From positions 192,001 to 256,000 of IMG/VR virus record IMGVR_UViG_2595698293_000001: a stretch of DNA of 64,000 nucleotides; one strand, 5' to 3'. Every line of letters starts with the position of its first letter. Within the stretch, counting starts at the first letter, position 1. The notes beneath the pieces are model-generated. The model saw only the letters and a list, made by a program, of their open reading frames with translations, was not told where the DNA came from and did not search any database. The position numbers and the translations under genes are program-made. Of this stretch, positions 2,137 through 4,194 are shown one piece after another. This stretch comes from a virus (taxonomy: Duplodnaviria; Caudoviricetes).

Positions 2137-2333
2137 TGATTAGTTTTTATTTGGCAGTGATACTTATTAATGGTAATATCGAAAGAACACTAGGAAATGG
2201 GTTTTATAAAACCCCCGAAGAATGCTATACGACGACAAATTGGCCTCGTGATAGTGAAACTCGTGAAGAATTCAAATGCATCAAGGCTACTGGTGATTTT
2301 GTAAATTTCAAAGTTATTGAGGTACAAAAATGA
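2133..2333 (+). CDS. small exported or membrane hypothetical protein
   Basis: ATGA overlap with upstream gene; hydrophobic N-terminus, two Cys. Confidence 0.65.
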   Translation: MMISFYLAVILINGNIERTLGNGFYKTPEECYTTTNWPRDSETREEFKCIKATGDFVNFKVIEVQK

Positions 2334-2611
2334 TTCTTTCAAAAGAAGAACGTGATATTGTATTACACGCTTTATATTTTCTTGAGAATGAAAGTATGCA
2401 TACGGATGCTTCTATGGCGTTGATTGAACGTCTTCAGAAAGAAGAAATGCCAAAGATTTATCGTATCCGTTATCTTGATGGGGCTGGTGGTGATCGTATT
2501 GCCATTGCTGAATCAAGAGAAGAAGCAGAACAAATCTTCACTGATAATTATTTGAATCCTTTTTTGATGGAAGAAGTTTGTGAAGTGAAAAATGGCACTT
2601 TTATTGGTTGA
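2330..2611 (+). CDS. hypothetical protein (MILSKEE N-terminus shared with 3245..3490)
   Basis: ATGA overlap; shared N-terminal helix. Confidence 0.7.
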   Translation: MILSKEERDIVLHALYFLENESMHTDASMALIERLQKEEMPKIYRIRYLDGAGGDRIAIAESREEAEQIFTDNYLNPFLMEEVCEVKNGTFIG

Positions 2612-2635
2612 CAGATAATAAAAATACAGTATAAT
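2608..2635 (+). promoter_or_regulatory. sigma70 promoter of tRNA-like RNA A
   Basis: TTGACA 2608, TATAAT 2630. Confidence 0.75.
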
Positions 2636-2641
2636 GTTTAT

Positions 2642-2742
2642 ATCAAGACAAGTAGTAGCTTAATATGTTCAAGAGCAGCGAGCAAACACAGCATAATGGT
2701 ACTCGTCTGTACAGGTTGCATTCCTGTTTACTTGTCTTTGAT
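2642..2742 (+). ncRNA. tRNA-like RNA A (extended acceptor stem, 19-nt anticodon loop, no CCA)
   Basis: atcaagacaagtag/ttacttgtctttgat stem; D-arm GCTT..GAGC; GCGAG/CTCGT stem; T-arm ACAGG-TTGCATT-CCTGT. Confidence 0.65.
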
Positions 2743-2768
2743 TTCTTTTAATTCAACGAGGTTATAAT

Positions 2769-2972
2769 ATGTTTACACCAAACACATCAAATGTAGGTAA
2801 GCGTGTAGTACTGTTAGAAGATGTATCAACACTTCGTGGCACTTTCAGTAAAGGCCATGAAATGACTATCATCGGTGAAACATCTCGCGGTTGGGATCTC
2901 GAAGATGATGATGGTAATCGCATTTTAGAAGCTGGGATGTTTGGTCATAAAGAATTTAAACTTCTTGACTAA
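2769..2972 (+). CDS. hypothetical protein (SH3/KOW-like beta pattern)
   Basis: GAGG SD; VGKRVVLLEDV...GWDLEDDDGNRI. Confidence 0.7.
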   Translation: MFTPNTSNVGKRVVLLEDVSTLRGTFSKGHEMTIIGETSRGWDLEDDDGNRILEAGMFGHKEFKLLD

Positions 2973-2999
2973 ATGATTACGTGCTGCTAATATAAGAAC

Positions 3000-3067
3000 A
3001 AGACGGGGTGATAAATTAACATTAACCTTAATCGATCAACAGGTGGCTGCGGTTATCATCCCGTCTT
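3000..3067 (+). ncRNA. promoter-driven long-stem hairpin RNA B
   Basis: TTGACT 2965 / TAATAT 2988; stem aagacggggtgataa/ttatcatcccgtctt followed by a T-run. Confidence 0.5.
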
Positions 3068-3091
3068 TCCTTTTTAACAATGAGGTTTATC

Positions 3092-3232
3092 ATGAGTAAA
3101 GATGTTCACGTTCCAGTACAAAATGGTATGTCAGCATGTGGTAAACGAGTGGATTTAACTGGTTGGGTACGTTCAATGATCACTTGTAAAAAATGCAAAA
3201 AAACCAAAGAGTATTTTGATTTGGAAAAATAA
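3092..3232 (+). CDS. 46-aa putative zinc-binding protein (H..C..CxxC)
   Basis: GAGG SD, ATG 3092, MSKDVH...ACG...TCKKCKK. Confidence 0.6.
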   Translation: MSKDVHVPVQNGMSACGKRVDLTGWVRSMITCKKCKKTKEYFDLEK

Positions 3233-3244
3233 CAAGGATTTATT

Positions 3245-3490
3245 ATGATACTATCTAAAGAAGAACAACAAATTGTTGCACAAGCAATGAGTCTTTTGCA
3301 CTTAACCACTGACAAAGAAAAAGATTTATTCAATCGTCTTAAAACTGGGGTTGATACAGTTCAACGTATAAAAGAGAGTAATGAACGTAAAATGAAATTC
3401 CATGCATCACTCATAGCTATGTATGGTCCAAATGCACATTTACATTATAATGATTATTATCAATACTGTGAAAAAAATGGTTTTTGGTGA
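3245..3490 (+). CDS. hypothetical protein
   Basis: AGGA SD; MILSKEE N-terminus. Confidence 0.7.
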   Translation: MILSKEEQQIVAQAMSLLHLTTDKEKDLFNRLKTGVDTVQRIKESNERKMKFHASLIAMYGPNAHLHYNDYYQYCEKNGFW

Positions 3491-3499
3491 AATAAAAGA

Positions 3500-3527
3500 T
3501 TGACAAATAACATTAGTACTGTATAAT
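3500..3527 (+). promoter_or_regulatory. sigma70 promoter of tRNA-like RNAs C and D
   Basis: TTGACA 3500, AGTACT in spacer, TATAAT 3522. Confidence 0.75.
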
Positions 3528-3533
3528 GTTTAC

Positions 3534-3622
3534 AATCAAGACAAGATTAGTTCAGTAGGTAGGAACCGTTCTATGTGTATCTAAGAATAAGTTGTGGTTC
3601 GATTCCCTATCTTGTCTTGATT
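3534..3622 (+). ncRNA. tRNA-like RNA C (14-bp acceptor-like stem, 11-nt anticodon loop, no CCA)
   Basis: aatcaagacaagat/atcttgtcttgatt; D-arm TA-GTTC-AGTAGGTAG-GAAC; T-loop GG-TTCGATT-CC. Confidence 0.65.
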
Positions 3623-3625
3623 TCA

Positions 3626-3815
3626 GTGGTGAGCTTTAGTGATACATCTATTGACGATGCGGGTGTGAGGGTGGCTACCTCAGCAGTGGCGAATTATGTA
3701 GCAACTGTGCTGAAAGATGCTAAGACAGTTCGATTCTGTCCACCCGCCGCACTAAAGGTAGGGTACTAAGTACCAGAAACTAACACGAGGCAGTCGGAAT
3801 ATACGCCTACACCAC
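3626..3815 (+). ncRNA. structured RNA D with an embedded tRNA-like domain (3659-3747)
   Basis: GCGGGTG/CACCCGC stem, TGAGG/CCTCA arm, perfect T-arm GACAG-TTCGATT-CTGTC, nested inside CTTTAGTG/CACTAAAG and GTGGTG/CACCAC helices. Confidence 0.7.
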
Positions 3816-3846
3816 AATTACTTTTAATTTAATTGAGGAACAAAAC

Positions 3847-4194
3847 ATGTCAGAATCACTTGTAAATAAAAACTCTCAAGGATTTGTAATTGCAAATAAA
3901 AACCCTCAAGGGTTTGTAATTATTGATCTGAATCTTAGCAGCGGGAGAATGTTCCAAAGTACTGATGCATGTATGCAATTTGACTTCCTCGGTTATGAAA
4001 TTAGTGTTAGTACAGGTGGTTCAGTACTACAAGGTGGTTTTCTTCAGGAAATTTTAGTTACTGATCCAGAAGAACGTCCTCACTTCATTCAGGGGTCGGT
4101 GCAAGATGCTATTATGTTTGTTATTCAGCGTGAACAAAATAGAAACTTTAATGAATTTACTAATGCAATGAGTAATAAGATTGAAGAAGTTTAA
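3847..4194 (+). CDS. hypothetical protein with N-terminal 10-aa tandem duplication
   Basis: GAGG SD; NKNSQGFVIA-NKNPQGFVII. Confidence 0.7.
   Translation: MSESLVNKNSQGFVIANKNPQGFVIIDLNLSSGRMFQSTDACMQFDFLGYEISVSTGGSVLQGGFLQEILVTDPEERPHFIQGSVQDAIMFVIQREQNRNFNEFTNAMSNKIEEV

What the first reader, a model, noticed from the sequence alone, without database searches (positions are those of the whole stretch)
2608..3815. Cluster of promoter-driven tRNA-shaped RNAs that cannot be ordinary tRNAs
Three tRNA-like folds (2642-2742, 3534-3622, 3659-3747) keep the D-arm/T-arm elbow. However, their anticodon loops are 19, 11 and 10 nt, none ends in CCA, and the acceptor helices are extended (about 14 bp) or continue into a larger fold. 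A and C share the same ATCAAGACAAG/CTTGTCT closing stem and each follows a near-consensus promoter. The stems are kept while the decoding parts are altered, which argues against random decay. Inference: tRNA-elbow mimics acting as decoys for host anticodon nucleases or tRNA-sensing defences, or as ligands for an RNP.
Basis: partly seen in the sequence, partly recalled or inferred. Interest (0 to 1): 0.85.

Follow-up and report, generated by a model that had tools for sequence, protein, structure and literature searches.

The report
Phage tRNA relics beside new RNA
One of the three flagged tRNA look-alikes is part of a roughly 190-base folded RNA that many large phages keep among their tRNA genes and no RNA catalogue lists, while the other two look like worn-down tRNA remnants sitting at the start of early phage transcripts.

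Summary
The window comes from a 346-kb Klebsiella jumbo phage (Alcyoneusvirus, Rak2-like). The three tRNA-shaped folds exist, but they are three different things.

- **C (3659-3747):** the tRNA-like domain of a ~190-nt RNA (3626-3815). This family has a four-way junction, an invariant 14-nt junction strand and a pseudoknot. I found 42 members, mostly in phage tRNA clusters. 94.7% of cells are paired and 30 of 39 pairs show double changes. Rfam 15 has no match. The "ACCA" near its end is helix, not a CCA tail.
- **B (3534-3622):** a marginal tRNA (30.4 bits, 11-nt anticodon loop). It fills the slot where 15 of 41 family loci carry a real tRNA just upstream of the RNA. It is missing in 3 of 6 close relatives and changes faster than its flanks. 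It is probably a tRNA relic kept, at most, as a processing spacer.
- **A (2642-2742):** unique to this phage. No tRNA model supports it. Its 5' half resembles a cloverleaf-shaped element that relatives carry at the same site.

Both promoters are genuine members of the phage's early-promoter family. The anticodon-nuclease decoy idea is not supported. The function of the RNA family is unknown, and transcription is not shown.

The parts
2608..2635 (+). Early promoter (12 of 12 match to the sigma-70 consensus) driving element A and ORF 2769-2972
   Evidence: It is a member of the phage's early-promoter family.
2642..2742 (+). Element A: a structured leader with a 13-14-bp closing helix (2642-2654 with 2729-2742) that starts at the inferred +1. 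It has a 19-nt loop on a long arm and a T-like hairpin with the non-canonical loop TTGCATT.
   Evidence: There is no tRNA-model hit. ARAGORN calls it only at relaxed settings. It is unique to this phage. Its 5' half aligns with element D of relatives.
2965..2993 (+). Promoter-like site (9 of 12; perfect -35 in Muenster) ahead of element E
3000..3075 (+). Element E, not in the finding: a 15-bp closing helix (3000-3014 with 3053-3067) followed by a U-run, ahead of ORF 3080-3232
   Evidence: z -3.9. It is 97.6-100% identical in three relatives.
3500..3527 (+). Early promoter (12 of 12) driving element B and the family RNA
3534..3622 (+). Element B: a degenerate tRNA (Rfam tRNA match 3541-3616) inside a 14-bp extended acceptor helix (3534-3547 with 3609-3622). 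It has an 11-nt anticodon loop and a mismatched T-stem.
3626..3815 (+). The family RNA of about 190 nt. It comprises P1 (3626-31 with 3810-15), P2 (3634-41 with 3750-57), the P3 hairpin (3645-59), the tRNA-like domain, P5 (3762-66 with 3770-74), the J5/6 strand, P6 (3789-92 with 3804-07) and a pseudoknot.
3659..3747 (+). Element C, the tRNA-like domain of the family RNA: acceptor-type helix 3659-65 with 3741-47, D arm about 3666-82, stem 3683-87 with 3704-08 and a 16-nt loop, 15-nt variable region 3709-23, and T arm 3724-40 with loop TTCGATT
   Evidence: Real tRNAs match this part of model R1.
3747..3749 (+). 5' strand of the pseudoknot (CCG). It pairs with 3795-3797 (CGG) in the P6 loop.
   Evidence: Found by mutual information. 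92.2% of cells are paired and 3 of 3 pairs covary.
3775..3788 (+). Invariant junction strand J5/6 (family motif AGNAANTAACACGA, continuing into GGC of P6)

Best explanation
The 1.2-kb stretch is a decayed outpost of the phage's tRNA region. It holds one conserved non-coding RNA gene and several tRNA-derived leader structures.

**Shown**
- 3626-3815 encodes a member of a widespread, uncatalogued phage RNA family.
- The family core is a helix joining the 5' and 3' ends (P1), a four-way junction, an invariant 14-nt junction strand and a 3-bp pseudoknot.
- A variable domain caps helix P2. In this phage, and in about half of the members, that domain is tRNA-shaped.

**Inferred**
- The RNA is cut out of tRNA-operon or early transcripts by the host's tRNA-processing nucleases. 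It accumulates as a stable small RNA and acts in trans through its invariant core on an unknown, conserved partner, probably in tRNA or translation metabolism.
- The tRNA-like cap serves as a built-in scaffold or an elbow-type recognition module.
- Element B is the worn-down remnant of the tRNA that in many members sits a few bases upstream of the RNA. At most it still works as a spacer or processing signal between the early promoter and the RNA. It is dispensable where a promoter abuts the RNA, as in K64-1.
- Element A, like elements D, B' and E, is a lineage-specific leader of tRNA origin. It occupies the place where other early transcripts of this phage carry a simple 5' hairpin. It probably acts only in cis, through 5'-end stability or attenuation, if it acts at all.
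For: **Family and structure**
- The same RNA occurs in Yersinia fHe-Yen9-04, Pectobacterium CBB, Serratia ChuuTotoro, Klebsiella KP13-26, Citrobacter Tr1 and Yersinia P778.
- It also occurs in 39 full-length plus 1 end-cut of the 55 IMG/VR loci that carry the 15-base motif.
- 68 GenBank phage records match one family member.
- On the seed alignment of 12 sequences, 97.4% of cells are paired and 16 of 32 pairs show double changes. 0 of 500 shuffles reach this, and slid controls give 37-57%.
- On 42 members, 94.7% of cells are paired and 30 of 39 pairs show double changes. 0 of 500 shuffles reach the covariation score, and slid controls give 37-49%.
- The pseudoknot was found by mutual information, independently of the model. 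It is 92.2% paired and 3 of 3 pairs covary.
- The window sequence can form all of these helices.

**Not catalogued**
- There is no Rfam match at E <= 10 in the window region, and none at E <= 1 over the RNA in 8 further loci.

**Phage-specific**
- Only 2 of 80 bacterial loci carrying the motif are members.

**Link to tRNA genes**
- 28 of 41 loci have a same-strand tRNA within 500 nt.
- 15 have one ending within 15 nt upstream, and 13 have one starting within 15 nt downstream.

**Element B**
- B scores 30.4 bits against the tRNA model. Its tRNA match ends 9 nt before P1, and its extended helix ends 3 nt before it.
- B is absent in K64-1, phiKp_21 and RCIP0023. In K64-1 a -10 box lies 9 nt before P1.
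- B is 91.2% identical to its Muenster copy, while the RNA is 99.5-100% identical.

**Leaders**
- Of 16 early-type promoters genome-wide, 8 are followed by a leader structure of -10 kcal/mol or stronger within 60 nt.
Against: - No expression or RNA ends are shown. Contigs from wastewater RNA libraries cover parts of the region only at low depth and may derive from DNA.
- Processing by tRNA enzymes, trans action, and the roles assigned to A and B are all inferences.
- Alignment A4 was fitted to the model's structure. Relatedness of the sequences inflates the shuffle controls. The window sequence was part of the model's seed.
- 13 of 41 family loci have no same-strand tRNA within 500 nt.
- No conserved protein neighbour points to a partner: the largest cluster covers 4 of 41 loci.
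- B and B' keep a nearly identical anticodon-type arm. All five named relatives carry at least one B-type element (B or B'), whereas this phage carries B but has A at the B' site. This could mean some constraint that I have not explained.
Confidence: 0.7

Rival explanations
1. One reading: all three are tRNA-elbow mimics made as small RNAs. They would act as decoys for host anticodon nucleases or other tRNA-sensing defences.
For: - B and C have plausible D/T elbows.
- Both lie behind strong early promoters, which would suit an early counter-defence role.
- About half of the family members (22 of 41 by my pattern) keep a canonical T arm.
Against: - The anticodon-loop region is the most variable part of the family and is missing in many members. 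One member is only 88 nt with no cap domain.
- A has no relatives.
- B is absent in 3 of 6 relatives and accumulates helix-breaking changes.
- The acceptor end of C is closed by P2, and the two bases after it sit in a pseudoknot.
- No defence-related gene context was found.
Confidence: 0.1
2. All three are plain tRNA pseudogenes with no present function.
For: - The region is syntenic with true tRNA clusters in Yersinia fHe-Yen9-04 and CBB.
- B scores just above the tRNA cut-off with an oversized loop.
- A, B, B' and D differ greatly between phages whose flanks are 95-100% identical.
Against: - C is refuted as a pseudogene by family-wide conservation and covariation, and by 99.5-100% identity among Alcyoneusviruses.
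- The long closing helices of A and B start at the inferred +1. They are not a tRNA feature and look selected or newly built.
Confidence: 0.1
3. A, B, E (and B' and D in relatives) are cis-regulatory leaders. They would be 5'-terminal stem structures that stabilise early mRNAs, or stem-plus-U-run attenuators that set read-through into the small ORFs. Their tRNA ancestry would be incidental.
For: - Other early promoters of the phage are followed by simple stable hairpins at the same position: 8 of 16 leaders reach -10 kcal/mol or stronger.
- The helices of A and B begin 7 nt after the -10 box.
- E and B' are followed by U-runs.
- E is 97.6-100% conserved.
Against: - No transcript data exist.
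- The promoter and terminator scans are consensus matches only.
- B in Muenster has a mismatch in the closing helix.
- This reading overlaps with my best explanation for A and does not explain C.
Confidence: 0.3
4. The 190-nt RNA is a self-cleaving ribozyme or another processing element that matures neighbouring tRNAs, in the way proposed for HDV-like theta ribozymes.
For: - It has a compact junction, a pseudoknot and an invariant junction strand.
- It abuts tRNA ends within 0-15 nt in many loci.
- It follows suppressor-type tRNA(CUA) genes in Yersinia fHe-Yen9-04, CBB and L039.
- Theta ribozymes set a precedent for ribozymes next to phage tRNAs (PMC10879173; passages read).
Against: - No ribozyme family of Rfam matches.
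- The topology, with the 5' end pairing the 3' end, differs from the nested double pseudoknot of HDV-like ribozymes. That comparison is my own reading, from recall.
- 13 of 41 loci have no nearby tRNA, this window among them.
Confidence: 0.1

Closest known systems
Phage T4 species 1 and 2 RNAs (rnaC, rnaD): small stable RNAs encoded in the T4 tRNA cluster
   Same: - Both are small non-tRNA RNAs encoded among phage tRNA genes, presumably released by tRNA processing, with function unknown.
- T4 rnaC also carries a T-arm-like hairpin (annotation and sequence seen).
   Different: There is no similarity by covariance model. In T4 only ordinary tRNAs match the tRNA-like part of R1. The conserved junction core, the J5/6 motif and the pseudoknot are absent there.
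Bacterial Y RNA-like YrlA (Rfam RF02553) and other tRNA-mimicking ncRNAs
   Same: - Both are modular ncRNAs in which a closed-off tRNA-like domain with D/T elbow features is attached to a separate conserved module.
- One family member (L040) even shows the permuted T, stem-loop, D order described for YrlA (PMC4201824, passages read).
   Different: - There is no RF02553 match in the window.
- The genome has no Ro60/TROVE gene.
- No GNCGAA-type 5' motif is present.
- The arm order in the window is the normal tRNA order.
- The conserved core is unrelated.
Canonical tRNA genes and tRNA pseudogenes
   Same: - B matches the tRNA model over all 71 positions.
- A, D and B' keep recognisable D-arm or T-arm pieces.
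- Relatives carry real tRNAs at syntenic places.
   Different: - The loops are oversized (19, 11 and 16 nt).
- There is no CCA.
- Acceptor helices are extended or closed.
- ARAGORN at default settings rejects all three.
HDV-like theta ribozymes next to phage tRNAs (PMC10879173)
   Same: Both are small structured RNAs placed within a few nt of phage tRNA ends, often next to suppressor tRNAs (passages read).
   Different: - Theta ribozymes are minimal HDV-like folds reported from gut phages of Bacteroidota and Bacillota.
- This family has a different topology and sequence, matches no Rfam ribozyme family, and has not been shown to cleave.
   Same: B sits between a promoter and a downstream RNA, exactly where real tRNAs sit in other family loci.
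   Different: No cleavage has been shown. B is dispensable in 3 of 6 relatives. I did not read the literature behind that note.

Membership tests
tRNA (Rfam RF00005) | Covariance-model score at or above the gathering score of 29 bits | tested here: inconclusive
   B scores 30.4 bits, just over the cut-off. A and C give no hit at E <= 10 in the region or the genome.
tRNA (Rfam RF00005) | 7-nt anticodon loop carrying a readable anticodon | tested here: not met
   The loops are 19 nt (A), 11 nt (B) and 16 nt (C). ARAGORN needs "introns" of 12, 4 and 15 nt to call them.
tRNA (Rfam RF00005) | Detection by ARAGORN at default stringency | tested here: not met
   ARAGORN finds 0 genes in the window and 8 genes elsewhere in the genome at 176.5-182.1 kb.
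tRNA (Rfam RF00005) | Free acceptor end with a discriminator base and a CCA that is encoded or can be added | tested here: not met
   A and B have 13-14-bp extended helices. The 3' side of C runs into a pseudoknot and P2.
Unnamed phage tRNA-cluster RNA family (model R1, built here) | Full-length match with P1, P2, P5, P6 and the J5/6 motif | tested here: met
   Window 3624-3817 scores 145.8 bits, but it was in the seed, so this holds by construction. Thirty of the 42 aligned members were not in the seed and score 46.7-139.4 bits.
Unnamed phage tRNA-cluster RNA family (model R1, built here) | Pseudoknot between the three bases 5' of the P2 3' strand and the P6 loop | tested here: met
   3747-3749 (CCG) is complementary to 3795-3797 (CGG). 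Family-wide, 92.2% of cells are paired and 3 of 3 pairs covary.
Unnamed phage tRNA-cluster RNA family (model R1, built here) | Location next to tRNA genes on the same strand | tested here: inconclusive
   28 of 41 loci meet this. The window has no canonical tRNA nearby, only the relic B, whose extended helix ends 3 nt upstream of P1.
YrlA / bacterial Y RNA (RF02553) | Covariance-model match | tested here: not met
   There is no RF02553 hit at E <= 10 in 2400-4000.
YrlA / bacterial Y RNA (RF02553) | Ro60 (TROVE) gene in the genome or nearby | tested here: not met
   PF05731 gives 0 matches in the 345.8-kb genome, and the control genomes respond.
YrlA / bacterial Y RNA (RF02553) | GNCGAAN0-1G motif near the 5' end, as described in PMC4201824 | tested here: not met
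   The motif is not present in 3626-3660.
T4 rnaC / rnaD | Sequence or structure similarity | tested here: not met
   R1 finds only tRNA-like partial matches in the T4 tRNA region and in the whole T4 record.
HDV-like (theta) ribozymes | Match to an HDV-like family; self-cleavage | tested here: not met
   No Rfam ribozyme family matches. Cleavage cannot be tested with these tools.

The most novel reading that the evidence does not exclude
The conserved four-way-junction and pseudoknot core is a new functional RNA class that many virulent, tRNA-rich phages use to act on the host tRNA or translation machinery. It could be a catalytic RNA, or a platform that docks tRNA elbows. The tRNA-shaped cap would then be its built-in ligand or recruiting handle.
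Probability: 0.15. Interest if true: 0.85.

Novelty: new variant of a known kind. Interest (0 to 1): 0.62.

Why it matters
- **A widespread unrecognised RNA.** A strongly conserved, pseudoknotted RNA sits in the tRNA clusters of many cultured phages. Examples are K64-1, Muenster, CBB, fHe-Yen9-04, phiEa21-4, the Serratia jumbo phages, and Stephanstirmvirinae and Vequintavirinae members. It goes unannotated, or is mislabelled as "tRNA-OTHER", "tRNA-Phe" or a hypothetical protein.
- **A testable candidate.** It is the kind of small stable phage RNA whose role has been open since T4 species 1 and 2. This family offers a clean core motif and lab phages in which to test it.
- **Annotation.** Oversized-loop tRNA look-alikes near phage promoters should not be read as decoys without comparative support.

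Tried and rejected
- **YrlA / Y RNA.** Rejected: no model hit, no Ro60 gene, no RtcB gene, and no 5' motif (motif as described).
- **T4 rnaC and rnaD.** No similarity by model R1.
- **Theta / HDV-like ribozymes.** The topology differs and no Rfam ribozyme family hits.
- **B as a direct descendant of the tRNA(CUA) that precedes the RNA in fHe-Yen9-04, CBB and L039.** The alignment shows only generic tRNA positions, so this is inconclusive.
- **Relatives of A.** There are none in the phage collection beyond the near-identical record. One 18-base pattern gave 0 IMG/VR hits. A 19-base pattern gave 3 hits, all chance matches inside coding regions.
- **A conserved protein neighbour of the family RNA.** None: the largest cluster covers 4 of 41 loci.
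- **Expression.**
  - Four wastewater runs were laid. Contigs from three metatranscriptomic runs cover 2352-2726, 3132-3370 and 3660-3984 piecemeal, at a word depth of 2-9.
  - They may come from DNA and show no ends, so this is no verdict.
  - A contig of the fourth run, probably DNA, skips 3220-3624 with the K64-1-type junction.
- **Literature.**
  - Searches on tRNA-like structured RNAs in phage tRNA clusters and on the core motif as a text string found no description of this family.
  - Supplements of PMC10690425, a list of 10,006 candidate viral RNAs, could not be opened and may include it.
- **Recalled resemblances.** The invariant strands reminded me of the double T-loop modules that dock tRNA elbows. 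The paper's text (PMC3664808) gives no consensus to compare against, so this is untested.
- **Earlier scan notes.** Three look-ups by sequence found nothing. Note e1-5785797 describes a similar-sounding promoter-driven RNA in another genome, but I could not establish that it is the same family.
- **A correction.** The correct count is 39 full-length plus 1 end-cut of 55.
Full report
**Where the window lies.** The window is bases 192,001-256,000 of a 345.8-kb phage genome. The finding region is 99.7% identical to an unannotated Klebsiella phage record. It is 88-93% identical, over the 71-80% of the query that aligns, to Alcyoneusvirus phages KP13-7, Muenster, K64-1, phiKp_21 and RCIP0023. The phage's eight canonical tRNA genes lie at 176.5-182.1 kb, which is 10-16 kb upstream of the window.

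**Checking the observation.**
- *Promoters.* Both are perfect 12/12 sigma-70 matches. They belong to a family with an extended -10 context that recurs far above chance: 15 sites against 2.76 +/- 1.71 expected.
- *Closing helices.* Those of the first two elements are real and share the ATCAAGACAAG strand.
- *Loop lengths.* The first two loops are 19 and 11 nt, as stated. I read the third as 16 nt, not 10.
- *tRNA detectors.*
  - ARAGORN at default settings finds nothing in the window. Rfam at gathering thresholds also finds nothing.
  - With permissive settings only B matches the tRNA model, at 30.4 bits against a cut-off of 29.
  - A and C are not among the tRNA-model hits at E <= 10.
  - ARAGORN relaxed to 80% calls all three. 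It also makes 178 calls in the genome against 102-125 in shuffles, so that is weak support.

**Element C is part of a larger, conserved RNA.**
- A search with 3495-3830 showed that 3629-3812 is conserved in Yersinia phage fHe-Yen9-04. The 3' part is also conserved in CBB, Stephanstirmvirinae, Vequintavirinae and a 90-kb Yersinia phage, always inside tRNA clusters.
- Lining these up gave a common architecture:
  - P1 joins the 5' and 3' ends. In the window this is 3626-31 with 3810-15, so the "ACCA" there is helix, not a CCA tail.
  - P2 is 3634-41 with 3750-57.
  - A small P3 hairpin precedes a variable domain that caps P2.
  - P5, an invariant 14-nt strand (family motif AGNAANTAACACGA) and P6 follow.
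- On 12 sequences the helices are 97.4% paired, and 16 of 32 pairs show changes on both sides.
- A covariance model recognised 39 full-length and one end-cut member among the 55 IMG/VR loci that carry the 15-base motif. It recognised only 2 of 80 bacterial loci that carry the same motif.
- On 42 members, 94.7% of cells are paired and 30 of 39 pairs covary. 0 of 500 shuffles reach the covariation score, and slid controls give 37-49%.
- A mutual-information scan found a further, unmodelled contact. The three bases just 5' of the P2 3' strand pair with the P6 loop. This pseudoknot is 92.2% paired and all three pairs covary. In the window it is 3747-49 with 3795-97.
- The genome has one copy. Phage 121Q and T4 have none.
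- No Rfam family matches the RNA here or in 8 further loci.
- 68 GenBank phage records match one member. They are annotated as nothing, "tRNA-OTHER", "tRNA-Gln", "tRNA-Phe" or a hypothetical protein.

**What the tRNA-like part is.**
- The cap on P2 is variable. 22 of 41 distinct members carry a canonical T arm by my pattern.
- Some members have a small two-hairpin domain instead. One, L046, is an 88-nt bare core.
- One, L040, has a permuted T, stem-loop, D order like that described for YrlA (PMC4201824 passages).
- In the enterobacterial subgroup the acceptor-type helix and the T arm covary. The region between them runs from a near-normal anticodon arm in ChuuTotoro, where it is annotated tRNA-Phe, to insertions of over 100 nt.
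- Real tRNAs match this part of the model at 18-25 bits.
- So C is a genuine tRNA-shaped module, but an accessory one. Its decoding end is not what is conserved.

**Context of the family.**
- Of 41 loci, 28 have a same-strand tRNA within 500 nt. 15 have a tRNA ending within 15 nt upstream and 13 have one starting within 15 nt downstream.
- No protein family recurs beside it: the largest cluster covers 4 of 41 loci.
- From this I infer that the RNA's ends are made by the tRNA-processing machinery, as is assumed for T4 species 1 and 2 RNAs. No end has been observed.

**Element B.**
- The tRNA-model match of B ends 9 nt before P1, and its extended helix ends 3 nt before it. This is the slot held by real tRNAs elsewhere, for example a tRNA(CUA) 3-10 nt upstream in fHe-Yen9-04, CBB and L039.
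- B is present in OU509535, KP13-7 and Muenster. It is absent from K64-1, phiKp_21 and RCIP0023.
- In K64-1 a TTGAAC-17-TATAAT promoter-like site lies 9 nt before P1. A wastewater contig shows the same junction.
- Against Muenster, B is 91.2% identical (5 mismatches and 3 gap columns in 89 nt). The upstream ORF is 98.4% identical, the promoter 97.7% and the RNA 99.5%.
- The changes hit the closing helix, a D-loop G, the T loop and one T-stem pair.
- I read B as a tRNA relic that at most still spaces or processes the transcript.

**Element A and its kin.**
- Only the promoter and the first 11 nt of A are shared with the five other Alcyoneusvirus records.
- At that site they carry three things in order:
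  - a B-type copy without a D arm (B') followed by a U-run;
  - an extra paralogous ORF;
  - a cloverleaf-shaped element D.
- A aligns with D in its 5' half only, although the flanking ORFs are 94-99.6% identical. This points to cassette replacement.
- Other early promoters of this phage are followed by simple stable hairpins: 8 of 16 leaders reach -10 kcal/mol or stronger.
- The helices of A and B begin 7 nt after the -10 box.
- A fourth structured leader, E (3000-3067, followed by a U-run), lies behind the promoter-like site at 2965-2993 and is 97.6-100% conserved.
- The neighbouring ORFs have no known function.

**Mechanism and rivals.**
- *Shown:* the family, its fold, its phage specificity and its link to tRNA genes.
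- *Inferred:* excision by tRNA-processing nucleases, trans action of the invariant core, the scaffold or handle role of the cap, B as a relic spacer, and A and E as cis leaders.
- The decoy-for-anticodon-nuclease idea conflicts with the hypervariable loop region.
- A ribozyme role cannot be excluded, but nothing specific supports it.
- Expression remains unproven.

**Novelty.** I found no description in Rfam 15 or in four literature searches. Earlier scan note e1-5785797 may describe a related RNA in another genome, but three sequence look-ups found no overlap.

Noticed in passing
window 3000-3075: Element E is a 15-bp closing helix plus a U-run behind a promoter-like site (2965-2993). It is 97.6-100% identical in three relatives, more conserved than several neighbouring ORFs. 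It may be a small RNA or an attenuator.
   Followed up: partly
window 24513-50984 and genome-wide: The early-promoter family has an extended CAGTACTGTATAAT -10 context. My pattern finds 16 sites genome-wide, 15 of them inside the window's span. About half are followed by a conserved initial transcribed sequence and a stable GC-rich leader hairpin just ahead of the ribosome-binding site.
   Followed up: partly
window 2330-2611 and 3245-3490; L001 1518-1760: Paralogous small ORFs starting MILSKEE or MILSNEE each precede an early promoter plus a tRNA-like leader. The unit of ORF, promoter and leader appears to have been duplicated in tandem. It is gained or lost between close relatives as a 405-nt indel at 3220-3624.
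   Followed up: partly
window 3575-3769; L002 2983-3177; L019 2502-2645; L001 3024-3122: Relatives annotate "hypothetical protein" CDSs over the family RNA, with different coordinates in each record. The window's equivalent ORF has no PHROG or Pfam match. These CDSs are probably spurious.
   Followed up: partly
own genome 180735-180808 (outside the window): There is another sub-threshold tRNA-like sequence inside the true tRNA cluster (21.7 bits). ARAGORN at relaxed settings gives it a 4-base anticodon.
   Followed up: no
L040 4614-4788: In this family member the cap domain is a circularly permuted tRNA look-alike: a T arm, then a stem-loop, then a D arm. That is the order described for YrlA.
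   Followed up: no
L083 5449-5572; L139 5039-5182: Only two bacterial assemblies among the 80 motif-bearing loci carry the RNA: an Acidobacteriaceae MAG and Limoniibacter endophyticus. They may be prophages. I did not examine the context.
   Followed up: no
window 3866-3925: ORF 3847-4194 starts with a near-perfect internal direct repeat (NKNSQGFVIA / NKNPQGFVI). The terminator scan flagged part of it as a palindrome.
   Followed up: no
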